In this document: positions 1 through 10,731 of the stretch, piece by piece
Layout: each line of letters opens with the position of its first letter
Position numbering within the stretch: the first letter of the stretch is position 1
DNA from: Parcubacteria group bacterium Gr01-1014_20
GTDB lineage: Bacteria > Patescibacteriota > Minisyncoccia > UBA6257 > 2-01-FULL-56-20
Assembly (NCBI GenBank): GCA_007376265.1
Contig: VMFW01000006.1
Coordinates: forward strand, 1 to 10,929
Length of the DNA stretch: 10,929 nt
Direction: 5' to 3'
Made by a program: the position numbers and the translations under genes
Notes under the pieces: model-generated
The model's database searches: none
What the model was told of the DNA's origin: nothing
The model's input: the letters and a program-made list of their open reading frames with translations, nothing else

Positions 1-2
1 GT

Positions 3-81
3 CGGGAGAAAGCGACAGGTTTCTCCCGTGTCGGAAACAATTCAAAACCGAGGGTTTTGAAAGAGTCTCGCAACGCGAGAC
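3..81 (-). other. Cluster of three perfect short hairpins downstream of the last gene of the redox cassette. Stems are 3-11/20-28 (9 bp, 8-nt loop), 43-49/53-59 (7 bp, 3-nt loop) and 65-71/75-81 (7 bp, 3-nt loop). On the minus strand the middle hairpin is followed by a U-rich stretch (aauuguuucc). Candidate intrinsic terminator or structured RNA.
   Basis: Read directly. cgggagaaa/tttctcccg, caaaacc/ggttttg and gtctcgc/gcgagac are exact reverse complements. The position is 100-180 nt downstream of the stop at 181-183. Confidence 0.3.
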
Positions 82-180
82 GACGCATAATTGCATTCCA
101 TTAACTTTTAAGACGTACTTGGCCATAATATTAACTAATTAACTTATAACTTTTTGATGATATATTTTATTCGTTAGAGA

Positions 181-636
181 CTATTGATTAGGTAGGGGAT
201 TGGTATCTTCCTTAATGATATCCCTCACTTTGATTCTGCCAATCATGTCGAAATGAGTACGTTTGGTCCCTTTGTATTCACCTTCGCCGCAGGGTACGGA
301 ACAGTAAAATGGAAATTCACCGGGTTGGGTAGCTACGAACTCAACCACGATCGTTTCGTTAGCTGGCATCCGTTGGGACACGCCGAGCGCGTCAATCGCG
401 ATACCGTGGTCATAACTATCTTTATTTACGACCGTCATGATGACTTTGTCGCCCCGATTAACCTCGATTTCTTCGGGTTCAAAAAGCCAGGCGTCTTTTA
501 CCGCGGTCACCGTTACTTTTACAACTTCGCCGGTTGTGAGGGGTTTGTCTTCGGACTTTAAGAAAGCTACCCGATAGATAATGCCTCCCCCAATGATTAG
601 AACTCCGACGATGGCTATCCAGAAGTATTTATTCAT
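181..636 (-). CDS. Cupredoxin-fold protein with a CuA-like ligand set, anchored by a single N-terminal transmembrane helix (151 aa)
   Basis: N-terminal hydrophobic helix (FWIAIVGVLIIGGGIIY). The C-terminal region FYCSVPCGEGEYKGTKRTHFDM gives C-x3-C-G ... H-x2-M, the pattern seen in the CuA site of cytochrome oxidase subunit II (C-S-E-L-C-G ... H-x2-M). An upstream His (SYDHGIAID) resembles the first CuA His. Fold and size fit the cupredoxin_1-type family. Only 4 nt separate it from the upstream gene, which indicates operon coupling. Confidence 0.7.
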   Translation of the reverse strand: MNKYFWIAIVGVLIIGGGIIYRVAFLKSEDKPLTTGEVVKVTVTAVKDAWLFEPEEIEVNRGDKVIMTVVNKDSYDHGIAIDALGVSQRMPANETIVVEFVATQPGEFPFYCSVPCGEGEYKGTKRTHFDMIGRIKVRDIIKEDTNPLPNQ

Positions 637-640
637 CCCG

Positions 641-2926
641 TTATTTTTTCATAACTACCGGAGGGACGGTAATATATTTTTTGACAGCCCAGCTCAAAAC
701 GAAGATCAAAATGATGGAGACTATTAAATTTCGCCACCAAGCGGCACCCTCGCCACTTTTCTCAACTGCAATTTGGGAATCTCTAGCCTCAATCCAAAAT
801 TCAGCGACTAAGGAGGCGTCTGCTTCCAGGGTTGTTCCCTCTGGTCTAAATTGCGCGAAGACTTTATAGAAGCCAGCTTTTTTAATTGGTAAGGTGAAAC
901 CGACATGGTCGGCTTCGGTTTCTCCACTTACGGTGGTTGTAGCTTCCTCCGTCTCGCCACCGTGGGCCAAGGCCTCTAGGGCGTTAGCGACTTGCGTGGG
1001 GTTTTTGGTATCCATCAGTGTGTGACTATGGTCGGTGTGACCGTCACCCTCGGGGAGATTACCGTGACCAGCCGCATCTGGGTGAGTATGAATAAATTGA
1101 CTCAGGTCTTCAGAGATGAGGGCGAGGTGCATTTTTTCGCCTAAGTAATTCTCAAGTTTTGCTGAATGACCAAAGGAATCCATAATTTCAAAGTCCACGT
1201 GGTTGTTGCCTAAACCAACTTCCGCATAGTCCAAAGTTACCTGATAGTTATCGACAATTCGGCTCTTTACTATTTCTTTCTCTAGTTTAGACGCGGGCCC
1301 TGCGCCTGCGACCGGAACTATTGGGTGGCCAAAGGCATGGTTTTCTCCTTTATATTTTATTTCTGACCAAATCTTGAAATAGCCCGGTTCTTTAAAAATG
1401 TGTTCGATGGTAAACAAACCACTTTCTTCGACTTTCATGTCTGGATGAATGTGAAAGAAGTTGGTTAGATCATCCCTGACCCCGATTACATGCATTTTTT
1501 TCTCGTGCTGGATTTCTAGGTCCGCTTCGGTAACAAAGTTATTATCCGGTCTGATTCTTACCGAAAATCCCAGTTGAGTTTGGTCTCCACTTTCGGGTTT
1601 GTCGGGCGTTACAACCAGACTAACTACTATTCCCTCAGCAACCTCAGTTTCCTCGTGATAAAAACTTTCGTGAGCTCCGGCGTGACTCTCGTCGCCCATC
1701 ATTTCGCTGTCTTGCATATGCCCATCCTCCATGTGCTCATCCATCATCTCTTCTATGCCGTGAGCTTGGGCCTTTTCTCTGAAGCGGTGAGGCAAAACAT
1801 AACCAAAAACCAGAATTAGAACTAAAGAGACAGAAATAATAGTCCAAAAATGGTAGGGGAGGTTTTTTTTCGCGCTTTCTTTTTCAGGCGAGTCTAGTAG
1901 CGCTTGAGTCGCTTTCCTTTTTCTTAAGTAATACCAAAATAGCGGCGTGATCCATAGGAAAAGTAAAACCCAGGTGCCCCAACTAATCGGCAGACTAAAA
2001 AGTCCGGTCGAGGTTTCCGGTGGCAGGCCGTGCGCGTGGGGAGCGGCTAGATTTAACCTCTCCGAGACAATCCCGAGGAATTTCTCTTCGCCAGTTAGCT
2101 CTTCGAGGAAGGTGTGTTGACCAGAGGCTACCCACCAATCGTGGGAAAAAAGCCCTAGTACTAAAATGAAACCCGCAACCAAAACCATGCCCCACCCAGT
2201 GGCTCGTTGGATTCTATCTTTGTTTTTAACTAGGCCGGCGAGGAGATTGACCCCTAGGATGGCTAGGATGGCTAGGAAGATGAGTGGCAAAACTCGTCCG
2301 ACGGCATGGGTAAAAAAGAGAAGCCAGCCATAAAAAACGTCGCCGGAAACTGCGATGCGAGTCAAAATCACCGGAGTGGCTGGATGCGGACAGCCAACAC
2401 CAATGTTTCCCAGGAAGAGCCCTAAGAGCAGGGCCTTTAGGACATCCTTCTGCTTCTGGATGAACCCCGGAAAGGCTCCGCTGTAAGATGGCATTCGAAG
2501 GCGGATTAGGCCTAGTTCGCCGAGAGCAAAGAGGAAAGCAAAAGTTCCAGCGACAAAATAGAGCCAGTTTTTGACGACTTCTAGGGGCGCACCGAGTGAA
2601 CCAATGGCGACCTTGCCGAGAACTGCCGCAAAGACTCCATAGAGACTTAGTGTGAAGGCGACTCCGATGCCGAAGGCGACGGCGATTGTAAAACCTTTAA
2701 CCGCGCCCTTGCCCATTGAAAGAGGGACAATGACGAAGGCTAGCGGCAGGGTGCAAGGAAGCACGATCATGGATAGTCCCGCCGCAAAACTAAAAAGGTA
2801 CCAGCCGGCACCAACGGGACTAGCTGGACTCCAAAGAAAGAACCAAATTAAACCGAGCGCAATAGCGGCGAAAAGTACAAAAAGAAGGGTAATTAAAATC
2901 TTTCTAAATCCTGAAATTTCTTCCAT
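641..2926 (-). CDS. 761-aa multidomain membrane protein. It comprises a CcdA/DsbD-like transmembrane thiol-disulfide relay domain (aa ~35-260), two extra TM helices, a Met/His-rich segment (aa 388-426), two tandem copies of a ~120-aa His-containing extracytoplasmic domain (aa ~430-545 and ~550-715) and a C-terminal TM anchor.
   Basis: The N-terminal domain has the hallmark CcdA/DsbD TM motifs with Cys in predicted TM1 (LPCTLPL, Cys57) and TM4 (GVGCPHPATP, Cys179). The Met/His-rich stretch HGIEEMMDEHMEDGHMQDSEMMGDESHAGAHESFYHEE (DNA 1649-1765) was verified by back-translation. A duplicated motif, KMHVIGVRDDLTNFFHIHPD (DNA 1439-1498) and KMHLALISEDLSQFIHTHPD (DNA 1076-1135), is followed in both copies by G-x-FT...GFYK. 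The second copy carries a His-rich insert (AAGHGNLPEGDGHTDHSHTLMD). A terminal hydrophobic helix (WWRNLIVSIILIFVLSWAV) is present. No SD is seen. Confidence 0.75.
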   Translation of the reverse strand: MEEISGFRKILITLLFVLFAAIALGLIWFFLWSPASPVGAGWYLFSFAAGLSMIVLPCTLPLAFVIVPLSMGKGAVKGFTIAVAFGIGVAFTLSLYGVFAAVLGKVAIGSLGAPLEVVKNWLYFVAGTFAFLFALGELGLIRLRMPSYSGAFPGFIQKQKDVLKALLLGLFLGNIGVGCPHPATPVILTRIAVSGDVFYGWLLFFTHAVGRVLPLIFLAILAILGVNLLAGLVKNKDRIQRATGWGMVLVAGFILVLGLFSHDWWVASGQHTFLEELTGEEKFLGIVSERLNLAAPHAHGLPPETSTGLFSLPISWGTWVLLFLWITPLFWYYLRKRKATQALLDSPEKESAKKNLPYHFWTIISVSLVLILVFGYVLPHRFREKAQAHGIEEMMDEHMEDGHMQDSEMMGDESHAGAHESFYHEETEVAEGIVVSLVVTPDKPESGDQTQLGFSVRIRPDNNFVTEADLEIQHEKKMHVIGVRDDLTNFFHIHPDMKVEESGLFTIEHIFKEPGYFKIWSEIKYKGENHAFGHPIVPVAGAGPASKLEKEIVKSRIVDNYQVTLDYAEVGLGNNHVDFEIMDSFGHSAKLENYLGEKMHLALISEDLSQFIHTHPDAAGHGNLPEGDGHTDHSHTLMDTKNPTQVANALEALAHGGETEEATTTVSGETEADHVGFTLPIKKAGFYKVFAQFRPEGTTLEADASLVAEFWIEARDSQIAVEKSGEGAAWWRNLIVSIILIFVLSWAVKKYITVPPVVMKK

Positions 2927-2958: not shown

Positions 2959-3387
2959 TTAAATTGTAGCATTTCGGACTGCTGGTGACTCTGATTTTTT
3001 CCACAGCAAGCCGGTTAGCGCCAGGCTGGCGCCTAAAAGCCCGATGTCTCGGAAGGTAATTAGAAAGTTTGCCTCCTTGAATGGGATGAAGGCGAGAACA
3101 AGAATTCCAAAAAGTTCGAGAGTTGAAAGGAGGGCTACCCAAAAGACGATTTTTGGTTTTAGAAACCAAGCCAAAAAAATCAGGGCCATCAAAATTTCTA
3201 TGAATCCCTGAACTCTTAAATAGGTGTTCACGGCCACAACTTGTTCTATCCATCCCGAAAGCCAGTAGGGGAGAGCCCAATGCCAACTTCCCGGGTGTTT
3301 CATGAGATCAAACCCAGAATATAGATACATTATTCCCAAGCCAAGGCGGAGAGACCATTCGACACCAATTTTATTTAGGAATGACAT
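2959..3387 (-). CDS. DoxX-family integral membrane protein (142 aa, 4 predicted TM helices)
   Basis: N-terminal LRLGLGIMYLYSGFDLMKHP matches the DoxX signature (R-L-x-L-G-x-x-F-x-x-x-G-x-x-K). There are four hydrophobic helices. The stop lies 32 nt upstream of the start of the fusion gene. Confidence 0.7.
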   Translation of the reverse strand: MSFLNKIGVEWSLRLGLGIMYLYSGFDLMKHPGSWHWALPYWLSGWIEQVVAVNTYLRVQGFIEILMALIFLAWFLKPKIVFWVALLSTLELFGILVLAFIPFKEANFLITFRDIGLLGASLALTGLLWKKSESPAVRNATI

Positions 3388-3403: not shown

Positions 3404-3670
3404 TTACCCAGAAAGTTCTTTCAGTTTGGTAAGTAGTTTGTCTTTACTGAATCCACCCGTAGAAAAAAGTTCGTTATTGATAATGATCCCCGGGGAGGCC
3501 ATAATCATGTATTTTTGGATGAGTTCACGGCCTTCGGGAGTCGTGATATCCGATTTTTTGTATTCTACATTAGGCCATTCCTTTTCAATCGATCGCCAAA
3601 ATTTTTCGAATTCTAAACAGTGCTGACAGCCGGGCGAGGAAAGTTCTTGGAGCAAAACTTGTTGAGGCAT
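3404..3670 (-). CDS. Small cytoplasmic thioredoxin-fold protein with a CxxC active site (CQHC), 88 aa, with no signal peptide
   Basis: SPGCQHCLEFEKFW near the N-terminus is a CxxC redox motif in thioredoxin/glutaredoxin-like context. Size and layout are typical of short Trx_3-like proteins. The gene lies 16 nt upstream of the DoxX gene. Confidence 0.65.
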   Translation of the reverse strand: MPQQVLLQELSSPGCQHCLEFEKFWRSIEKEWPNVEYKKSDITTPEGRELIQKYMIMASPGIIINNELFSTGGFSKDKLLTKLKELSG

Positions 3671-3698: not shown

Positions 3699-4457
3699 CT
3701 ACAGGTAGCCAATTTTTTTCAGCGAAGATTCGTTTTCCCATTCCCAGAGTTTTTTAGCTCCAAGGAAGGCCGCGAAGTCGTTTTGCCAATGAGGGAATTC
3801 CTGAAACTCAATATCACCCCTCATTTCACTCCAAGCGTGTTCGAGGCAGGGGAGACGACCGTTCGGTTTTATTTTTTCGATGCCACCTTTTAATCTTCGA
3901 CGAGCGCCGCAGAATTGGCAGGTTTGGATTTGGTCAATTTTTAGAATCCAGCGGGTTTCGAGGCCAGTGAATTCATCTTTCAGGGCATCCATATAGGCGG
4001 AGGTTTGGAGGTTGTAGTCACGGTAGATGGCCTGAGAGGTTTTGATATCTAAAACACCAAGCTTGCCATCAATGAAGGCCACGGCGTCGACGGTGCCGGC
4101 GTAACGGTGGTTGTGATTGACTACTCTTTTTTCCACAAAATCTTCAGTGACGTGAATGTTTTTTTGGTTTATGAAATCTTGAAACGATTTTATCGCTGGT
4201 TGGATTTTGGGATCGTTTTTTGGCTCTCGTCCCAAAAGGATGGCTTCGACGGCTTCATGAACTGCCGTGCCTTCGCTGGCGGATTTATTTTTTACAGACT
4301 CGCCTTCGGCAAAATTTTTCACACCCGCGTAAAATCGGTAAAGAGCCGGTTTGGCTTTAATATCAACAATTTTGGTGACGCGAGGGTACCAAACGCCACC
4401 CACGTCATAGCCGTTTTTTTCTTTGAAGGTTTCGCTAGTTTGAAAATCGTTATACAT
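3699..4457 (-). CDS. PD-(D/E)xK superfamily nuclease, Cas4/RecB-nuclease-like (252 aa), with a C-terminal Cys/His cluster
   Basis: Motif I is GTAVHEAVE (G-x3-H-E-x2-E). Motif II Asp is in GTVDAVAFIDG. Motif III is LDIKTSQ (D-x-K). The QxxxY motif (QTSAY) is characteristic of the RecB/Cas4 nuclease clade. The C-terminal segment is CQFC...PCLEH. No cas1/cas2 or repeat array lies nearby. Confidence 0.65.
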   Translation of the reverse strand: MYNDFQTSETFKEKNGYDVGGVWYPRVTKIVDIKAKPALYRFYAGVKNFAEGESVKNKSASEGTAVHEAVEAILLGREPKNDPKIQPAIKSFQDFINQKNIHVTEDFVEKRVVNHNHRYAGTVDAVAFIDGKLGVLDIKTSQAIYRDYNLQTSAYMDALKDEFTGLETRWILKIDQIQTCQFCGARRRLKGGIEKIKPNGRLPCLEHAWSEMRGDIEFQEFPHWQNDFAAFLGAKKLWEWENESSLKKIGYL

Positions 4458-4467
4458 AAGTGGGGGT

Positions 4468-4473
4468 ATTATA
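4468..4473 (-). promoter_or_regulatory. -10 hexamer TATAAT lying 10 nt upstream of the nuclease ATG (leaderless-type arrangement)
   Basis: The minus-strand sequence aagTATAATacccccacttATG was read directly. The 121-nt intergenic region has no SD. Confidence 0.35.
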
Positions 4474-4578
4474 CTTCTTTTCGTTCTGTGATTGAACTTA
4501 TGATTTGGTTTGGGATTGATGAGTTTCGGTTGATTTTATGATTGGAGGGATGTTTTTACGAAAAGCAGCAATTTTGTT

Positions 4579-5181
4579 TTACCCCAGGGATTCTAAGACG
4601 GGGACTGGGTTTACGTCTTTTCCCTTCGGGTTCGGGCCGCAGCCGTTTTCTTGATCCATTCTAAAACCATCTTTCTTGAAGACTGAAAAATGCAAGTGGG
4701 GCGCGGTCGAGAGACCGGTGCGGCCGACCTCTCCAATTTTTTCTTTGAGGTCAAGATCCTGGTTCTCTTTAACACTGATTTTTGATAGATGGGCAAAAAG
4801 AAAGAAAAAGTCGCTTTTGTCGCTCTCGACAATTACAAATTTCCCGTACCCTCGTCTCGGACAGTAAAGTTCTTGATTGCCGACTGCCATCACTTTGCCC
4901 TTGGTTGGTGTTAGGACGGGAGTGCCGAGTTTAGCGGGAATATCGATGCCGTTATGTCGCTTGCCGGCAAGTCTTATTTGAGCAAACTCCGTTCGGCCGT
5001 ACCCTTGAGAAATGTAAACAGTGCTGTTTTTTCCGGGTAGAAGCGGAGAATTTTTCAGTTGGGCCGACGAGTCTGTTTTTGAGTATTCACCGCGAACGAT
5101 CAAGCCAAGGGTTTCAAGGGTAGAACTAATCGCAACAAGAGAAAAGAATGTAAATATAAGGAGTAAAAAAAACTTACCCAT
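4579..5181 (-). CDS. M23 (LytM-type) peptidoglycan metalloendopeptidase with an N-terminal signal/anchor
   Basis: HNGIDI (H-x-x-x-D) and PHLHF (H-x-H) are the M23 zinc motifs. The ATG at 5181 directly precedes the signal peptide MGKFFLLLIF and overlaps the murC stop (ATGGGTAAG), so it is preferred over the GTG at 5220 given in the track. Confidence 0.8.
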   Translation of the reverse strand: MGKFFLLLIFTFFSLVAISSTLETLGLIVRGEYSKTDSSAQLKNSPLLPGKNSTVYISQGYGRTEFAQIRLAGKRHNGIDIPAKLGTPVLTPTKGKVMAVGNQELYCPRRGYGKFVIVESDKSDFFFLFAHLSKISVKENQDLDLKEKIGEVGRTGLSTAPHLHFSVFKKDGFRMDQENGCGPNPKGKDVNPVPVLESLG

Positions 5182-6556
5182 GGGAAGGAAGGAGGGAGGG
5201 CGTGTAATCGACAATGTCACCGGCGCCCATCATGATGATACATGAATCATGAAGTTTAAAACCTTGATTATCGAGGATTTTGGGTAGGAATTTATTGATC
5301 CGGTTAGGGGAGGGGAGATAGTAAGCCTTTTTTCGTGGATATTTTTTGCGGATGGCTTCGACCAGCTTTTTTGAGGTAAAAGTTGAGGTGACTTTGTCTC
5401 GGCCAGCAACTTCGTAGACGGGAATAATGATGAGAAAATCAGCTAGTGAAAATGATTCGGTAAATTCTTTGAAGAGAGATTTAAGGCGTTTAGCTTGGTG
5501 GGGTTGGTAGACACAGATAAGTTTTTTTTCAGGGAATTTTTCTCGAAAGGCTTGGAGGGAAGCTTTTATTTCGGTTGGGTGGTGAGCATAGTCATCGTAA
5601 ACGTGAATCTTGAATCTTGAATCATGAATAAGGAATCCTCTGAACTCCATCCGGCGCCAGGCGCCGGTATAAGAACCGAGCGCTTTTAGGGCAATCGATT
5701 TTTTAATTTTTAAAATCTTAGCCATGACTAAAACTGCACTCGCATTCGAGATATTGTGATCACCGGGAATTCGGAGAATTTTTTTTAACTCTGCTTTTTT
5801 GGCCGAATACCAGACAACTTCCAGACTCCGTTTTTTTGCGATTTTTGAAATAGGGGATTTAAGGGAGGAAAGATTTTTGTCGTCTTGGTTGAGTATAAGC
5901 GAGCCGCCAGGTTTAGTTCTGCTCATAAATTTCAGAAATGTTTTCTTGACGTCCGAGAGGTCTCTATAGAAATCCAAATGCTCTTTGTCGATCGTGGTAA
6001 CGATGATGACATCGCTTTCATAATTTAAGAAAGAAGCTTTCCATTCATCAGCTTCAATAACGAGCCACTTGGAACGCCCGTATCGAAAATTCTTATTGCC
6101 AAATCCTTTAAGGTTAGTGCCGATGATAACATTAGGATCGAGCTTGGCTTTGATGAGCGTGAGCGCGGCGAGCGCGGTCGTGGTGGACTTACCGTGACTC
6201 CCCGCGATAGAGATAGTCTTGTAGACTCTGGTTAGGCAGCCCAGGGTTTCGGGGTAGGAAAGGGGTTTTAGGCCCCGCTTTTTTGCTTCAACCATCTCTG
6301 GATTGTCGGGTCTAATAGCGGGGCTATAAATGACCATATTTAGGTCTCTTTTTGGCAAGTTAGCTTTTTTATGGCCAATTTTGACTCTAGCGCCCTCCGT
6401 TCTAAGGTTCGTAATGTTAGCGCTACTTGAGATGTCAGAGCCGCTCACCACCCAATTTTGAGCTAAAAACCAGCGAGCTAGAGAGCTGATTCCTATGCCA
6501 CCGATACCTATAAAATGGGCTACCGGTTTTGACTGGGGGAGGGTTTTTCTAGGCAT
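5174..6556 (-). CDS. murC: UDP-N-acetylmuramate--L-alanine ligase
   Basis: The N-terminal HFIGIGGIGISS motif is the MurC signature. The central P-loop is GSHGKSTTTA, and DYAHHP is present. The ATG at 6556 (MPRK...) is preferred over the TTG at 6562 given in the track. Confidence 0.85.
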   Translation of the reverse strand: MPRKTLPQSKPVAHFIGIGGIGISSLARWFLAQNWVVSGSDISSSANITNLRTEGARVKIGHKKANLPKRDLNMVIYSPAIRPDNPEMVEAKKRGLKPLSYPETLGCLTRVYKTISIAGSHGKSTTTALAALTLIKAKLDPNVIIGTNLKGFGNKNFRYGRSKWLVIEADEWKASFLNYESDVIIVTTIDKEHLDFYRDLSDVKKTFLKFMSRTKPGGSLILNQDDKNLSSLKSPISKIAKKRSLEVVWYSAKKAELKKILRIPGDHNISNASAVLVMAKILKIKKSIALKALGSYTGAWRRMEFRGFLIHDSRFKIHVYDDYAHHPTEIKASLQAFREKFPEKKLICVYQPHQAKRLKSLFKEFTESFSLADFLIIIPVYEVAGRDKVTSTFTSKKLVEAIRKKYPRKKAYYLPSPNRINKFLPKILDNQGFKLHDSCIIMMGAGDIVDYTPSLLPSHG

Positions 6557-6587
6557 TTGCAACGTATGTTATCTGTCGCACAATATA

Positions 6588-6689
6588 GCTTTCACGACAG
6601 TATTATTCATGAGGCTTGAGGGGTGTTCGCTATTGGGTACCCTCACCTTTTTTGTGTTTTGTGTCTATCCAGAATACTGTCGTGAAAGC
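6588..6689. repeat. Perfect 17-bp inverted repeat (gctttcacgacagtatt / aatactgtcgtgaaagc) flanking a 68-nt core, in the murC upstream region
   Basis: Arms at 6588-6604 and 6673-6689 are exact reverse complements. Neither arm extends further. Confidence 0.5.
6617..6656 (+). terminator. Terminator-like hairpin on the plus strand, tgaggg-[17 nt]-ccctca followed by ccTTTTTTgtgTTTTgtg, located inside the 17-bp inverted repeat
   Basis: The 6-bp stem at 6617-6622/6640-6645 and the T6/T4 runs were read directly. Orientation is opposite to all genes, so function is unclear. Confidence 0.25.
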
Positions 6690-6691
6690 CA

Positions 6692-6740
6692 GCAATTATT
6701 TTACAACGGCAATAAATAATAGCCATCGTAAAATAATTGC
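6692..6740. repeat. Perfect 11-bp AT-rich inverted repeat (gcaattatttt / aaaataattgc) with a 27-nt spacer, immediately downstream of the stop of the 6744-7145 gene
   Basis: 6692-6702 and 6730-6740 are exact reverse complements. Confidence 0.4.
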
Positions 6741-6743
6741 GCC

Positions 6744-7145
6744 CTATTTCCTGACTGAGATTATCGAAAAAACCTTTTTGAGCGCATTGGCTATGGCGTC
6801 CACTAGGTATACAAAAAATCCGCCAATTTTGCCAAAGGTTTCGCCGATTGTGAGTCCGGTTATTTTTTCGAACCAGCCGTCAATAAAAGTAAAAGCTGGT
6901 CGAACTAGATCAAAAAGCCACCAAAATATGATTTTAATGATTTCGTAAATTTTGACCACGATATTTTTCACAAATTCTATGGCGCGATAAAATGAGTTTC
7001 GAACGGGTTCGAAAACTTCTCGCAAAGCTTGGTTAGGAGTTTTAATGCCGTAGTTCCATTCTTCATCGGCTGAATGAACTTGAGTCGAGGCGAACGTGAT
7101 AATTAATCCAATTCCAAAAAGTAGGGCGAGGTTTTTTTTGCGCAT
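6744..7145 (-). CDS. Small secreted or membrane-associated hypothetical protein (133 aa) embedded in the cell-wall gene block
   Basis: Signal peptide with an AXA-like site (TQVHS-AD). A strongly hydrophobic internal segment is present (IIKIIFWWLFDLV). No recognisable catalytic motif is seen. The gene lies 11 nt downstream of the MurE-like gene. Confidence 0.45.
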   Translation of the reverse strand: MRKKNLALLFGIGLIITFASTQVHSADEEWNYGIKTPNQALREVFEPVRNSFYRAIEFVKNIVVKIYEIIKIIFWWLFDLVRPAFTFIDGWFEKITGLTIGETFGKIGGFFVYLVDAIANALKKVFSIISVRK

Positions 7146-7156
7146 ATCTTATTGTC

Positions 7157-8470
7157 TTATATCAAACCGAAAGTAGTTTTTTCTAATTCTTGTCTGACCA
7201 CTTCTCGGTCGTCCCACGGAATCGTTTTGTTTGTGATTATCATTGATTGTTCAGCTCCTTTCCCCGTAATGATAACAATATCGTCCTCAAGAGCCAGTGA
7301 CAAGGCTTTCTGAATTCCCTCTCTCCTGTCTTCGATCGGGAAAAGATTTTTATTTCTTACTTTACCATTTTTTTCTGCCGCTTGGGTAATTGACTCGATA
7401 ATTTCTTGGGGATCGTCGTCGTAGGGGTCGACATTTGAAACTACTATAAGATCGGCGAGTTCGGCGGCCACTTGACCCATTCGAGGCCTTTTCTTTTTAT
7501 CCCGCCCGCCACCTTCGGCGCCGATAAGAATTATGATTCGGTTTTTTTTGATTTTATTAGCGAGCTCAAGAATTGCCCTCAGACTGACTTCATCGTGGGC
7601 GTAGTCAACAAAAACGGAATACTTTTTACTGGTCTTCACTAGTTCCATTCGGCCTGGCACACTCGTCACTTTTCCTATCCCCTCTTTTATAGACTTATAA
7701 TCTAGGCCTAGAGCGGAGGTGGTAGCGATGGCGGCCAGAGCGTTCGTAACGTTATGAGCCCCCAAGAGTGCTAGTTCATAGTTGCGATTGCTCACTGAAA
7801 AGGTAACATTTCTCGGAGTGACTTGTATTTTTTCGGCCACAAAATTGGCCTTAGAATTTATGCCGTAAGTAATTTTTTGATCAGCTTCAGATTCAAGGAG
7901 TTTTTCGCTTTCTTCTGTGTCCATGTTGATAACAATCGTTTTCGGAATTTTTTTGCCGTCAATAGTTTTTCGTTGGTTTTTTCCGAGCGCAGAAAATATT
8001 TTTCGGTTCATCATTTTTAGTCGTTCATAGTCCCAGCCATGAATTTCTAGATATTCCGGGTAGAGCGTAACTAGAACCGCGACATCGTAACGAATAGCGT
8101 GGTGTCGCCATTGCTCAATGCCTTCTGATGGGGTTTCGATTACAGCGTACTTGCATCCTGCTCGCACCATTGCTCTCAACATTTTCTGCATCGCGAAACG
8201 ACCGGGCATGGTCATGTGATAAGGGTTTAGAATTTCCTTTTCACCTAGGTGAATCGTAGCGGTGCTAGTTAAGCCGGTTTGGTGGTTGGCGGCTCGAAGG
8301 CATGACCAGATAAATTTGGCCGTGGTTGTTTTGCCTCGGGTGCCGACTACGCCGATTATCACCATTTTTTTTGAAGGGAGCCCATAGATTGCCGCGCCAA
8401 GGTAGGGCAGGAGCCAATGGTACCAACCTATCAGGAATTTCGGAATTAATTTTTTGATAATTTTTTTCAT
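7157..8470 (-). CDS. Mur ligase family protein with MurE-type central and C-terminal domains but lacking the N-terminal UDP-MurNAc-binding domain. It begins instead with a ~35-aa hydrophobic/aromatic segment.
   Basis: The P-loop GVVGTRGKTTT is already at aa 41-51. VFVDYAHDEVSL is present. GAEGGGRDKKKRPRMG...SNVDPYDDDP parallels MurE (GCGGDRDKGKRPLMG...TDDNPRTEEP). The C-terminal ITGKGAEQ parallels AGKGHE. The ATGA start/stop overlap with the FemAB gene was seen directly. Confidence 0.7.
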   Translation of the reverse strand: MKKIIKKLIPKFLIGWYHWLLPYLGAAIYGLPSKKMVIIGVVGTRGKTTTAKFIWSCLRAANHQTGLTSTATIHLGEKEILNPYHMTMPGRFAMQKMLRAMVRAGCKYAVIETPSEGIEQWRHHAIRYDVAVLVTLYPEYLEIHGWDYERLKMMNRKIFSALGKNQRKTIDGKKIPKTIVINMDTEESEKLLESEADQKITYGINSKANFVAEKIQVTPRNVTFSVSNRNYELALLGAHNVTNALAAIATTSALGLDYKSIKEGIGKVTSVPGRMELVKTSKKYSVFVDYAHDEVSLRAILELANKIKKNRIIILIGAEGGGRDKKKRPRMGQVAAELADLIVVSNVDPYDDDPQEIIESITQAAEKNGKVRNKNLFPIEDRREGIQKALSLALEDDIVIITGKGAEQSMIITNKTIPWDDREVVRQELEKTTFGLI

Positions 8471-9432
8471 TTAAACTTTTTAATAAGCTGGAATAGGAAG
8501 TGCCATTTTTTATTTAAAGCGAGGTCCCAGGTGCCAATATATTTTACAGTTTGACTCCCAAAGCTTTTTTTGAAAGACGTTATGCCTGACCATTTTTTAT
8601 TATTTTCATCAATACCCCACAGGTCGAAAATGTTAAGGCCGTTGGCTTTAGCATCGAGAATGGCTTCCCATAAAAGCAGAGATGGGGCATTGAATTTACC
8701 ATAACCCTCCAGAGAAGAAGCCAAGCCATAGGTAGAGCTTTCGGCAAAGTGAATTATTAGGGCAGCACTGACTGTTTTGTCCCCTACCTGACCCAGGAAA
8801 ATTTTTGATCGACAGTTGCCGGTCAGCGCGAAAACCTCGCGGTAATACTTTTCTGGGTAGGTTCGGAGCTCGTGGCGTTTGTTGGTGGCTTCGAATATTT
8901 CCCAAAACTCATTGAATTTTTCCAATTTCTCTTTAGTAGATTCAATCTTTATGATTTTTACTCCTCTTTTTTGGGCGGTTTTGATGGCGTAGCGTGTATC
9001 TTTATCTAATTTTTCGTATAGTTCACTCTCTTTGATTTTCAGGTTCAAAACTGCGGTAGTTTCTGGCTGAACCTGTTTGCTCTTTTTAAAACCTAGAACC
9101 TGAAGGATTTTTTTGTCCTCGGTGTTTTCTTCAACCGCCGGTTCAACCCTTAAGAAGATGACCTTGTGCCTCTCTTTTAGTTTTTGAATTTCCGAGATTA
9201 GAATTTCTAGTTTTTTGAGGGACCCGCTTGGGCCGCGAGGAACGTAAAAATAATTTAAGCCAAACGGTAATTTGTATTTGATGAGTAGGGCGGATAAGTC
9301 AGCTACCGAGACGTGGAACACCTCTCGGCCAAGATTTCTCTGAAGCTCTCCCCATTCCCACGATTGGAGATAGGATCCATTCTGGGCGAAGACAAGTTTG
9401 TCCCACTCCTTTTGATCCTCAACTAATTTCAT
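8467..9432 (-). CDS. FemAB-family peptidoglycan aminoacyltransferase (FemX/MurM-like)
   Basis: 321 aa. The overall FemAB-like composition and length fit. The FemAB assignment is my recognition of the family, not a motif match I can point to. The gene is flanked by and translationally coupled to the Mur ligase (ATGA) and the M23 gene (TAAATG). Confidence 0.65.
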   Translation of the reverse strand: MKLVEDQKEWDKLVFAQNGSYLQSWEWGELQRNLGREVFHVSVADLSALLIKYKLPFGLNYFYVPRGPSGSLKKLEILISEIQKLKERHKVIFLRVEPAVEENTEDKKILQVLGFKKSKQVQPETTAVLNLKIKESELYEKLDKDTRYAIKTAQKRGVKIIKIESTKEKLEKFNEFWEIFEATNKRHELRTYPEKYYREVFALTGNCRSKIFLGQVGDKTVSAALIIHFAESSTYGLASSLEGYGKFNAPSLLLWEAILDAKANGLNIFDLWGIDENNKKWSGITSFKKSFGSQTVKYIGTWDLALNKKWHFLFQLIKKFK

Positions 9433-10731
9433 TTAGAGGTATTGCTCAGGATCTAGGTCACCACCGACTGGCATCGGACCGCAGACTCTTGAGGCCTTGG
9501 TTCCTTCCGGAAAACCAGCTCGAGCTGGAGTCAGCGTGTTATTGGCAAAAACAGTAAAGTGAAGGTGTGGGCCGGTAGCCCAACCACTTTTTCCCATATA
9601 ACCGATTACCTCGCCCTCCTTGACCTCCTGGCCGATTGAAACGATGAATCGTGAGAGATGAGCGTAAAGAGTGGTTAAGCCGTTTTTGTGTTTGACGACG
9701 ATGAGTTTGCCGTAAGCCCCGCCGCGGCAACCTCTGTACTGATCTTGATCGGCTACGTTGATTACTATGCCATCTCCGGCCGCTAAGATGGGCGTTCCGA
9801 TCGGTCCGCCGAGGTCAAGTCCGTTGTGGTGCTGGCCGCGGTAGTTTTTTTTGGCAAATTCAGTTACACCGTATCTTTGGGTTATTTTTACAGTTTTAAC
9901 CGGCCAGAGAAAAACGCCTGGTCTGGGGGTGGGCAGAAGATTAGGATCGATCTGTTTGCGCAGTTCGGTTTCAACTTTTTCAATTTCAGCCGCTATTTCT
10001 TCTTGCTTTTTCTCGAGTTCTTTCAGTTGCTGATTGTAAATGCTTTCTTTGTTTTTAGTGTTCGCGAGGAGGGTTTCCTTAGTATCTTCTTGGTCCTCGA
10101 TAATAATTCTTTTATTTTCCGAATTTCTCTTTCGCTCGGATATTTCAACGAGTTTGGCATCTATATCACCGACTTTTCTTACCTTAGCACCTCTCAGTTC
10201 ATCTAGGCCGCCAATTTCGATGCCGAGTTGTGAGCTTGTGTCAGTTAGAGATTGAGCTTCTAGGAGGTTTTCGGCTAAGCTATTTCCTTTGAGTAAAACT
10301 ATTAGGAGATTGGTGTGGCTGTTTCTCTGAAGGCGTCTTAGGAGTTGAACGATGGCGTCGCGTTTGTCATCGACTGAGAGTTCAATGTCCTGGATGTCGT
10401 ATTTCAGCGAGTCTATTTCTAGGGAAAGCTTCTCGGTCGCGACCTTGTCGGCGCGGATGCTCAGATTGAGTTGTGAAATATTATTTTTAATAGTCGTTAA
10501 CTCTTTTTGGAGCCCAACCTTTTCCGTTTTAGTGTCCTGAAGTTTTTCTTGGGTTTCGGCGAGCTCTCGGTTTAGCTTTTCGAGTTCAAGGCTTTGGGAG
10601 CGGATACGGCTTTCTAGTTCCTCTCGGCTAAGATTTACCTCAGCTGAATCTACCGCCAAGGTCAGATTGGAGGTTACAACCGAAGAAAGAACAACGGAGA
10701 ATAAAATTATTTTTTTAGCTAGATTGATCAT
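9433..10731 (-). CDS. EnvC-like murein hydrolase/activator. It has an N-terminal signal peptide, a long coiled-coil region and a C-terminal M23 peptidase domain.
   Basis: A signal peptide is followed by ~250 aa of heptad-like, E/K/L/Q-rich sequence. The C-terminal M23 motifs are HHNGLDLG and GPHLHFTV. Confidence 0.8.
   Translation of the reverse strand: MINLAKKIILFSVVLSSVVTSNLTLAVDSAEVNLSREELESRIRSQSLELEKLNRELAETQEKLQDTKTEKVGLQKELTTIKNNISQLNLSIRADKVATEKLSLEIDSLKYDIQDIELSVDDKRDAIVQLLRRLQRNSHTNLLIVLLKGNSLAENLLEAQSLTDTSSQLGIEIGGLDELRGAKVRKVGDIDAKLVEISERKRNSENKRIIIEDQEDTKETLLANTKNKESIYNQQLKELEKKQEEIAAEIEKVETELRKQIDPNLLPTPRPGVFLWPVKTVKITQRYGVTEFAKKNYRGQHHNGLDLGGPIGTPILAAGDGIVINVADQDQYRGCRGGAYGKLIVVKHKNGLTTLYAHLSRFIVSIGQEVKEGEVIGYMGKSGWATGPHLHFTVFANNTLTPARAGFPEGTKASRVCGPMPVGGDLDPEQYL

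What the first reader, a model, noticed from the sequence alone, without database searches (positions are those of the whole stretch)
641..2926. 761-aa fusion protein with a tandem-duplicated unassigned K-M-H...F-x-H-x-H-P-D domain and a Met-rich copper-type segment
Within one ORF, a CcdA-like 6-TM core is followed by two more TM helices and then MMDEHMEDGHMQDSEMMGDESHAGAHE (DNA 1649-1765). Clustered Met/His motifs of this kind are established Cu(I)-binding elements, as in Ctr1 Mets motifs, CopC/PcoC and CusF. Next come two ~120-aa tandem copies of one domain, at DNA ~1292-1639 and ~782-1279. Both carry the nearly identical 20-mers KMHVIGVRDDLTNFFHIHPD and KMHLALISEDLSQFIHTHPD, and both continue with G-x-FT...GFYK. 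The second copy has an extra His-rich insert (GHGNLPEGDGHTDHSHTLMD). The segment is flanked by TM helices on both sides, so it forms a membrane-tethered extracytoplasmic loop. I cannot assign this repeated domain to a family from memory. It might be related to YtkA/CtaK-like or PCuAC-like Cu chaperone folds, but that is a guess. A CcdA reductase fused directly to a putative metal-binding client has not been described to my knowledge.
Basis: seen in the sequence. Interest (0 to 1): 0.8.

Follow-up and report, generated by a model that had tools for sequence, protein, structure and literature searches.

The report
CcdA fused to tandem copper-chaperone domains
This membrane protein joins a CcdA-type thiol-electron conduit to two outward-facing, histidine-rich YtkA/CtaK-like copper-binding domains; it sits in a conserved copper operon of the tiny-genome Patescibacteria, where it probably helps load or handle copper for a neighbouring two-cysteine cupredoxin.

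Summary
The 761-aa ORF (641..2926, minus strand) is real and has the features described. It has a DsbD_TM/CcdA-like core, and its only two cysteines (C58, C179) are invariant. After the core come a Met/His/acidic linker, two homologous Ig-like domains carrying H-x3-M-H...H-x-H-P motifs, and a C-terminal TM helix.

The "unassigned" domain is a divergent YtkA/CtaK-like domain. Sixteen of 121 homologues reach Pfam PF13115. Distant relatives are fused to CopC-CopD, to Cupredoxin_1 or to DsbD_TM.

The fusion is not a chimera and not rare. Forty-two of 60 species-level Patescibacteria loci have it, and the other 18 carry the two genes adjacent. All sit in one operon: cytoplasmic thioredoxin, DoxX-like membrane protein, CcdA, tandem domain, CuA-like cupredoxin, CopA-type ATPase, CopZ.

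The tandem domain has no cysteine, so it cannot be CcdA's thiol client. The co-encoded cupredoxin, with an invariant C-x3-C pair, is the better candidate.

My best reading is a combined thiol-reduction and copper-delivery module for that cupredoxin. A copper-permease role and a copper-detoxification role remain open. I found no paper describing this architecture. I class it as a new variant of known kinds, of moderate to high interest.

The parts
641..2926 (-). 761-aa fusion ORF: CcdA-like module plus tandem YtkA-like ectodomain
   Evidence: The identical protein occurs on 3 contigs from independent assemblies. Fused orthologues occur in 42 of 60 species-level loci.
2834..2905 (-). Extra N-terminal TM helix (aa 8-31), running in to out
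   Evidence: Hydropathy. AF2 helix 2-31.
2123..2806 (-). CcdA/DsbD_TM-like 6-TM core (aa 41-268). Invariant C58 (DNA 2753-2755) and C179 (DNA 2390-2392) lie at helix breaks. M53, H181 and H207 are also invariant in 89 close CcdA-type homologues.
1991..2143 (-). Extracytoplasmic His loop of the CcdA-like module (aa 262-312), with invariant H262, H271, H297 and H299 (HDWW...SGQH...PHxHG)
   Evidence: Conservation in 40 fused orthologues and 89 CcdA-type homologues. Topology.
1781..1990 (-). TM8 (aa 313-344), a K/R-rich cytoplasmic junction (aa 334-358) and TM9 (aa 359-382). The junction is where the two genes are joined. In split orthologues the CcdA gene ends here and the tandem gene starts here.
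   Evidence: AF2 helices 314-344 and 359-388. In L001 the two genes overlap by 1 nt. Sequences of standalone proteins.
1667..1780 (-). Met/His/Asp/Glu-rich low-complexity linker (aa 383-420)
   Evidence: Compositional bias is conserved in 99 homologues although sequence and length are not.
1304..1666 (-). YtkA-like Ig-type domain 1 (aa 421-541). Conserved residues: H474, M478, H479, H492, H494, P495, H534.
   Evidence: Alignments. AF2 pLDDT above 95. PF13115 hits in homologues fall on this domain.
779..1264 (-). YtkA-like Ig-type domain 2 (aa 555-716). Conserved residues: M599, H600, H613, H615. It carries a variable His-rich insert that is predicted disordered (aa 625-669, DNA 920-1054).
   Evidence: hhalign of domain 1 against domain 2 gives E 4.9e-9. 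In the AF2 model, fragment residues 205-249 have pLDDT below 50.
674..736 (-). C-terminal TM anchor (aa 731-751), followed by a K-rich cytoplasmic tail
181..636 (-). Membrane-anchored CuA-like cupredoxin, the probable client. Ligand set: H77, C112-x3-C116, H128-x2-M131.
   Evidence: Cupredoxin_1 at E 1.2e-11. Nitrosocyanin, NosZ CuA domain and CoxB are the best PDB matches. Both Cys and both His are kept in 60 of 60 orthologues; the axial residue is Met in 56 and Gln in 4.
2959..3387 (-). 142-aa, 4-TM, Cys-free operon member, weakly DoxX/MauE-like
   Evidence: Present in nearly all related loci. Sub-threshold DoxX hits, E 0.003-0.04, in 3 of 6 orthologues.
3404..3670 (-). 88-aa cytoplasmic thioredoxin (Thioredoxin_3, CQHC), the presumed electron donor to the CcdA module
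   Evidence: CxxC is present in 63 of 63 orthologues and there is no signal sequence or TM helix.
1..126 (-). Start of an HMA-like ORF (MAKYVLKVNGM...) where copA lies in related loci. It is cut off by the end of the contig.
   Evidence: The ATPase follows the cupredoxin in most related loci.

Best explanation
The ORF is a two-module copper-handling membrane protein of Patescibacteria.

Module 1 (aa 1-344) is a CcdA-type transmembrane thiol-disulfide conduit. It would take electrons from the small cytoplasmic thioredoxin encoded two genes upstream.

Module 2 (aa 359-761) is a membrane-tethered extracytoplasmic copper chaperone. It consists of a floppy Met/His/acidic capture linker followed by two YtkA/CtaK-type Ig-like domains, each with an invariant His cluster (H-x3-(M)-H ... 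H-x-H-P).

Proposed mechanism: CopZ and the CopA-type ATPase of the same operon export Cu(I). The linker and the YtkA-like domains capture the copper at the membrane surface and pass it to the membrane-anchored CuA-like cupredoxin encoded immediately downstream. The CcdA module keeps that cupredoxin's C-x3-C pair reduced so that it can accept copper; it may also keep nearby His-bound copper reduced. In function this would combine what TlpA/Sco (reduction) and PCuAC/CtaK (copper delivery) do separately in CuA assembly.

Shown here: the domain identities, the topology, the conservation, the operon and the fusion patterns. Inferred: copper binding, the direction of copper flow, the identity of the thiol client and the electron donor.
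For: Module identities:
- DsbD_TM match above cutoff.
- The protein has only two Cys, both invariant and both at predicted helix breaks.
- The model aligns to CcdA 5vkv.
- The tandem Ig-like model is confident: pLDDT 84.9, pTM 0.81.
- 16 of 121 homologues hit PF13115 YtkA, and no other family recurs.

Copper context:
- The operon Trx, DoxX-like, CcdA, tandem domain, Cupredoxin_1, Cu-ATPase, HMA is found in about 60 of 68 species-level loci.
- The ATPases pass TIGR01511.

Fusion (Rosetta-stone) links:
- The tandem domain is fused to DsbD_TM in either order, to Cupredoxin_1, and to CopC-CopD as in B. subtilis YcnJ.

Thiol relay:
- The thioredoxin has CxxC in 63 of 63 orthologues and no export signal.
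- The cupredoxin keeps C-x3-C plus two His in 60 of 60, with a Met/Gln axial position typical of real copper sites.

Literature:
- CtaK/YtkA and the YtkA domain of YcnJ act in CuA assembly together with Sco. TlpA keeps the CuA cysteines reduced (PMC13344008, PMC9145763).
Against: - No extracytoplasmic thioredoxin-fold partner (ResA, TlpA or Sco type) is encoded in the operon, yet every characterised CcdA acts through one.
- The window protein's own tandem domains do not reach PF13115.
- The cupredoxin's copper loop has 11 residues between the second Cys and the His, against 3 in canonical CuA, so it may not be a CuA centre.
- Its N-terminal anchor gives only weak charge evidence that the domain faces outward.
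- The CcdA module carries invariant His and Met residues in and beside the membrane (M53, H181, H207, H262, H271, H297, H299). These fit a metal path at least as well as a pure thiol relay.
- No model coordinates were available, so I could not check whether the His residues converge on one site.
- No experiment exists for any member of this family.
Confidence: 0.5

Rival explanations
1. Copper permease. The CcdA-like module does not relay electrons. It is a Cu(I)/Cu(II) channel of the LysE/DsbD superfold in which C58, C179-P-H181, M53 and H207 form an intramembrane copper site. The His loop and the YtkA-like domains feed or receive the ion. This would be analogous to CopD followed by YtkA in YcnJ.
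For: - Invariant M53, H181, H207 and an extracytoplasmic cluster of four His.
- The C-P-H triplet resembles the CPx motif of P1B-ATPases (my own knowledge, not tested here).
- The same tandem domain follows CopC-CopD in distant relatives, and YcnJ is a copper importer (PMC13344008).
Against: - Every characterised PF02683 member is a thiol-disulfide transporter.
- A cytoplasmic thioredoxin with CxxC is kept in 63 of 63 operons.
- A dedicated copper ATPase is already present.
- I know of no precedent for copper transport by a DsbD_TM protein.
Confidence: 0.2
2. Copper-stress defence. The operon is a cop-type resistance cluster. The ectodomain and the cupredoxin buffer exported copper at the cell surface. 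The CcdA module supplies reducing power to repair copper-catalysed mis-oxidation of envelope thiols, as DsbD/ScsB do in copper tolerance. No specific cuproenzyme is matured.
For: - CopA- and CopZ-type genes are adjacent.
- The order cupredoxin then copA resembles cupA-copA of Streptococcus pneumoniae. The match to CupA is weak, E 0.08.
- ScsB/DsbD have known links to copper tolerance (PMC3322552 was listed; the link itself is from my own knowledge).
Against: - The cupredoxin keeps a complete redox-type ligand set, including the Met/Gln axial variation, rather than a Met-rich sponge.
- Tandem-domain-to-cupredoxin fusions imply a specific partnership.
- No envelope thioredoxin-fold acceptor is present in the operon.
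Confidence: 0.2
3. One reading: the tandem His/Met domain is itself the substrate ('client') reduced by the fused CcdA.
For: Physical fusion of the two modules.
Against: There is no cysteine anywhere in aa 180-761 and none is conserved in the tandem region across homologues. A thiol-disulfide conduit has nothing to reduce there, unless the substrate is bound copper.
Confidence: 0.04
4. Assembly chimera or sequencing frameshift that artificially joins two adjacent genes.
For: In 18 of 60 related loci the two genes are separate, and in L001 they overlap by 1 nt, so a single-base error could fuse them.
Against: - The identical 761-aa ORF occurs on three contigs from independent assemblies.
- 42 other species have the fused ORF, including one on a complete 716-kb chromosome.
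- A second, more divergent fused subtype of 641-683 aa is also common.
Confidence: 0.01

Closest known systems
[quoted passage not shown]
   Same: Both are extracytoplasmic, membrane-tethered, all-beta Ig-like domains with conserved His/Met. They sit in a copper-trafficking context. The YtkA domain lies C-terminal to a polytopic membrane module (CopD in YcnJ). CtaK/YtkA is genetically tied to CuA assembly.
   Different: Here the domain is duplicated in tandem and anchored at both ends. It has a distinct H-x3-M-H...H-x-H-P signature. It is too divergent to hit PF13115 itself. It is attached to a CcdA-like module rather than to CopC-CopD or a lipid anchor. The host organisms are not known to have a cytochrome c oxidase.
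CcdA / DsbD-beta / ScsB transmembrane thiol-disulfide transporters (PF02683)
   Same: The 6-TM core has one cysteine in each half at a helix break. A cytoplasmic thioredoxin is encoded nearby. The annotation and Pfam match agree.
   Different: There is an extra N-terminal TM helix and an extra C-terminal TM helix. The second motif is G-C-P-H-P rather than the P-C-x-x-P type (the canonical form is from my memory). There are invariant intramembrane His/Met residues and an extracytoplasmic loop with four His. No thioredoxin-fold acceptor is in the operon. Cytochrome c maturation seems an unlikely role, because as far as I know these bacteria generally lack c-type cytochromes; I did not check these genomes.
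CuA assembly systems (TlpA/Sco reductant plus PCuAC or CtaK copper donor, with a CopA-like ATPase supplying copper)
   Same: The same logical parts are encoded together: a reductant path, a His/Met copper chaperone, a Cu(I) exporter and a two-Cys cupredoxin target.
   Different: Reductant path and chaperone are on one polypeptide. No Sco, TlpA or PCuAC homologue was seen in the operon. The target is a stand-alone cupredoxin with an 8-residue longer copper loop, not subunit II of an oxidase or NosZ.
S. pneumoniae copY-cupA-copA (a membrane-anchored cupredoxin-like Cu(I) chaperone next to CopA)
   Same: A membrane-anchored Cupredoxin_1 protein with two Cys is encoded directly upstream of a copper ATPase.
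   Different: The match to CupA is only E 0.08. The ligand pattern here is H/C/C/H/M (CuA-like), not Cys/Cys/Met/Met. CupA is described as cytoplasmic (my own knowledge), whereas an outward orientation is proposed here, and only on weak charge evidence.

Membership tests
DsbD_TM / CcdA (PF02683) | Profile match above the curated threshold | tested here: met
   aa 45-222, E 1e-8, 35.2 bits against a 27.1 cutoff. All 120 best homologues carry PF02683.
DsbD_TM / CcdA (PF02683) | One conserved redox cysteine in each half of the 6-TM inverted repeat, located at a helix discontinuity | tested here: met
   C58 and C179 are invariant in 89 and in 40 sequences. AF2 helices break at residues 56-58 and 177-182.
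DsbD_TM / CcdA (PF02683) | Fold similar to the solved CcdA structure | tested here: met
DsbD_TM / CcdA (PF02683) | Cytoplasmic thioredoxin donor | tested here: inconclusive
   A Thioredoxin_3 gene with CxxC is present in 63 of the related loci and has no export signal. Electron transfer itself cannot be tested here.
DsbD_TM / CcdA (PF02683) | Extracytoplasmic thioredoxin-fold acceptor (ResA, CcmG, TlpA or Etrx type) | tested here: not met
   None among the operon genes in the window or in related loci. The rest of the genomes was not searched.
YtkA / CtaK-like (PF13115) | Profile match of the window's own domains | tested here: not met
   No PF13115 hit for either domain at E up to 10.
YtkA / CtaK-like (PF13115) | Profile match at family level (homologues with E below 1e-40 to the window domain) | tested here: met
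   16 of 121 homologues hit PF13115. The best is E 7.4e-6, 27.0 bits against a 25.9 cutoff, covering domain 1. No other family recurs. Distant relatives with CopC-CopD also hit PF13115.
YtkA / CtaK-like (PF13115) | Extracytoplasmic, membrane-tethered Ig-like beta-sandwich with conserved His/Met | tested here: met
YtkA / CtaK-like (PF13115) | Role in copper delivery to a CuA centre | not testable with these tools
   Only context: a CuA-like cupredoxin is adjacent, and tandem-domain-to-cupredoxin fusions exist.
PCuAC (DUF461) | Profile match to the family and its His/Met copper motif (which I recall as H(M)x10Mx21HxM) | tested here: not met
   No Pfam hit to that family at E up to 10. The motif seen here is H-x3-M-H-x12-H-x-H.
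CopC / CrdA | CopC profile match, or the Met-rich loop / His-brace site | tested here: not met
CuA-type cupredoxin (neighbouring gene 181..636) | Ligand set H...C-x3-C-x3-H-x2-M | tested here: inconclusive
   All ligand types are present and conserved in 60 of 60, but the spacing is C-x3-C-x11-H-x2-(M/Q). The centre could be binuclear or of another type.

The most novel reading that the evidence does not exclude
Patescibacteria, which as far as I know are generally thought to lack a respiratory chain, maintain a self-contained machine in which a thioredoxin-fed CcdA conduit acts directly, without any thioredoxin-fold intermediary. It would act on copper or on the cysteines of a copper site held by its own His loop and the fused YtkA-like domains. 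That would make it a thiol-driven cupric reductase and copper insertase that matures a new class of long-loop CuA-like cupredoxin with an unknown redox role at the cell surface.
Probability: 0.15. Interest if true: 0.85.

Novelty: new variant of a known kind. Interest (0 to 1): 0.6.

Why it matters
YtkA/CtaK domains are genetically tied to CuA assembly, but I know of no solved structure or defined metal site for them. This family offers a large, well-conserved set: about 2,300 clusters at E up to 1e-10, with a sharp His signature and a confident model.

The recurrent fusion to a CcdA conduit, and in other lineages to cupredoxins and to CopC-CopD, links thiol reduction, copper delivery and the copper-protein target in one testable unit.

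It also raises a biological question. Ultra-small Patescibacteria are generally considered non-respiring, yet they keep a seven-gene copper cluster built around a CuA-like cupredoxin. Why they do so is unknown.

If the CcdA module acts without a thioredoxin-fold partner, or acts on copper, that would extend what this transporter family is known to do.

Tried and rejected
- Sequence searches of the tandem region against PDB chains, with a single sequence and with a 121-sequence profile, gave only chance-level hits at E of about 0.1 or more.
- The CcdA part alone found no PDB sequence match.
- The Foldseek top hit, Zcp (DUF4198, a zinc-capture protein), had TM-scores of only 0.24-0.30. I treated it as generic two-Ig-domain similarity.
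- The afdb50 library was unavailable.
- Model coordinates are not exposed, so I could not measure whether the His and Met residues converge on one site.
- The 142-aa membrane protein could not be assigned beyond sub-threshold DoxX/MauE hits.
- Literature searches for CcdA with YtkA, for Patescibacteria with cupredoxin or copper, and for the YtkA domain found no description of this fusion or operon.
- Chimera or frameshift was rejected.
- The 'thiol client' reading was rejected because there are no cysteines.
Full report
**1. Observation**

The window holds a 761-aa ORF at 641..2926 on the minus strand.
- The Met/His segment is aa 394-420 (DNA 1667-1747).
- The two 20-mers are aa 477-496 and aa 598-617.
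- The His-rich insert is aa 620-639.

The first copy reads GYFK rather than GFYK. Pfam assigns aa 45-222 to DsbD_TM (E 1e-8, above the gathering score) and assigns nothing to the C-terminal 380 residues.

The two copies are homologous. BLASTP gives E 2e-6. A profile-profile comparison built from 121 homologues gives 96% probability and E 4.9e-9.

The linker is 16% Met and 13% His, against 1.5% and 3.7% elsewhere in the protein (p 2.7e-6). Ninety-nine homologues keep this composition without keeping sequence or length.

**2. Topology**

Hydropathy and an AlphaFold2 model of aa 1-392 (pLDDT 78.8) give the following layout:
- an extra N-terminal helix;
- a 6-TM core whose first and fourth helices are broken at C58 and C179;
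- an extracytoplasmic stretch with short helices (aa 267-312);
- two further TM helices.

A last TM helix lies at aa 731-751. Short loops assigned to the cytoplasm carry 18 K/R against 3 outside. The 348-aa tandem segment is strongly acidic.

**3. What the repeated domain is**

A search with aa 421-718 found 192 homologues, all from Patescibacteria/CPR metagenomes, and none of them named.

Alignment shows a His-centred signature:
- Domain 1: H474-x3-M478-H479 ... H492-x-H494-P, plus H534.
- Domain 2: M599-H600 ... H613-x-H615-P.

AlphaFold2 with this alignment gives two confident all-beta sandwiches (pLDDT 84.9, pTM 0.81). The His-rich insert of domain 2 is predicted disordered.

Sixteen of the 121 homologues reach Pfam PF13115 (YtkA-like) on domain 1, and no other family recurs.

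An exhaustive profile search finds 4,383 clusters at E up to 1e-3 and 2,293 at E up to 1e-10. Among the more distant members the same tandem unit is fused in several ways:
- to CopC-CopD, which is the YcnJ architecture;
- to Cupredoxin_1;
- to YHYH plus Cupredoxin_1;
- to DsbD_TM, in either order.

In these distant members the His positions are kept, while the Met is replaced by I, F, A or G.

I conclude that the domain is a divergent, duplicated member of the YtkA/CtaK-like superfamily. CtaK and the YtkA domain of YcnJ are extracytoplasmic factors for CuA assembly in B. subtilis (PMC13344008, PMC9145763).

**4. The fusion and its surroundings**

The same 761-aa protein is encoded on three contigs from independent assemblies.

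In GTDB species representatives, 68 loci encode a relative, and nearly all of them are Patescibacteria. Of the 60 loci where the arrangement can be judged, 42 have CcdA and the tandem unit in one ORF and 18 have them as adjacent genes. One fused ORF, of 735 aa, lies on a complete 716-kb chromosome.

A rough NJ tree interleaves the two states, with about 12 changes and the fused state at the root. A second, more divergent fused subtype (641-683 aa, no Met-rich linker, no C-terminal TM helix) is common in Giovannonibacteria and Brennerbacteria.

The gene order is almost invariant:
1. thioredoxin (Thioredoxin_3);
2. a 4-TM protein;
3. CcdA;
4. the tandem unit;
5. Cupredoxin_1;
6. a copper P-type ATPase that passes TIGR01511;
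7. sometimes other genes in between, then a CopZ-like HMA protein.

In the window, the contig ends just as an HMA-like ORF begins.

**5. The partners**

*Thioredoxin.* It has CxxC in 63 of 63 orthologues and no export signal.

*Cupredoxin (181..636).* It is anchored by an N-terminal helix. Its best matches are nitrosocyanin, the CuA domain of NosZ and CoxB. It keeps H77, C112-x3-C116 and H128 in 60 of 60 orthologues. The axial position is Met in 56 and Gln in 4, a substitution that, as I recall, is also seen in stellacyanin-type copper sites. The loop between the second Cys and the His is 11 residues, against 3 in canonical CuA.

*The fusion protein itself.* It has only two cysteines, C58 and C179. 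The tandem unit therefore cannot be a thiol client.

*The CcdA module.* It has features that I do not associate with canonical CcdA. M53, H181 (in G-C-P-H-P) and H207 are invariant among 89 close CcdA-type homologues (H181 in about 85% of the 40 fused orthologues), and there is an extracytoplasmic cluster of four invariant His: H262, H271, H297 and H299. Its model aligns to CcdA 5vkv over 193 residues at 19% identity. RnfA and NqrE score higher.

**6. Mechanism**

My best reading (confidence 0.5) is a combined module for the operon's cupredoxin:
- The thioredoxin feeds the CcdA conduit, which keeps the cupredoxin's cysteine pair reduced. It may also keep nearby copper reduced.
- The Met/His linker and the YtkA-like domains capture copper exported by the ATPase and hand it over to the cupredoxin.

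This mirrors the division of labour between TlpA/Sco and PCuAC/CtaK in CuA assembly, but on one polypeptide.

The main weakness is that no thioredoxin-fold acceptor is present.

The rivals are:
- a copper-permease role for the CcdA-like module (0.2), supported by the intramembrane Cys/His/Met set and by the parallel with CopD followed by YtkA;
- a general copper-defence role (0.2);
- the 'thiol client' reading (0.04) and the chimera reading (0.01), both effectively excluded.

**7. Novelty**

Both modules belong to known families, and the fusion is widespread in public data under the label 'CcdA'. Full-text searches found no description of this architecture, of the tandem His-signature family, or of the Patescibacteria copper operon.

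I class it as a new variant of known kinds. Interest is moderate to high, because it offers a tractable handle on YtkA-domain function and raises the question of what a CuA-like cupredoxin does in these bacteria.

Noticed in passing
window 1-126 (-): An ORF starts MAKYVLKVNGMQLCVVSRC..., resembling the HMA N-terminus of the copper ATPase that follows the cupredoxin in related loci. Its GMxCxxC motif is garbled. Both independent contigs end within about 40-170 nt of this point, so the assemblies break exactly where copA should begin.
   Followed up: partly
window 181-636 (-): The membrane-anchored cupredoxin has a CuA-like ligand set but an 8-residue longer copper loop (C-x3-C-x11-H-x2-M). Four of 60 orthologues replace the axial Met with Gln. 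It may be a distinct cupredoxin subclass specific to Patescibacteria.
   Followed up: partly
window 2959-3387 (-): A 142-aa, 4-TM, Cys-free protein is conserved between the thioredoxin and CcdA genes in nearly all related loci. It has only sub-threshold DoxX/MauE similarity, and its role is unknown.
   Followed up: partly
window 1991-2143 (-), aa 262-312 of the ORF: The extracytoplasmic loop of the CcdA-like module has four invariant His (HDWW, SGQH, PHxHG). M53, H181 and H207 are invariant within the membrane. This suggests the CcdA module itself touches metal.
   Followed up: partly
L001, L003-L005, L016, L022, L023, L037, L039 (upstream of the operon): In the Yanofskybacteria-like loci an Nramp-family metal transporter gene lies divergently just upstream of the thioredoxin gene. 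It is absent from the window.
   Followed up: no
loci L072, L073, L074: Three weaker relatives of the tandem domain (31-32% identity) lie in MAGs labelled Bifidobacteriaceae and Verrucomicrobiia, without the CcdA, cupredoxin or ATPase neighbours. This shows the tandem unit exists outside the Patescibacteria operon.
   Followed up: no
window 3699-10731: The rest of the window encodes ordinary Patescibacteria cell-envelope genes: two M23 peptidases, two Mur ligase-family proteins and a FemAB-family protein. There is also a 252-aa protein with a weak PD-(D/E)XK/Cas4-like match (E 3.6e-4).
   Followed up: no
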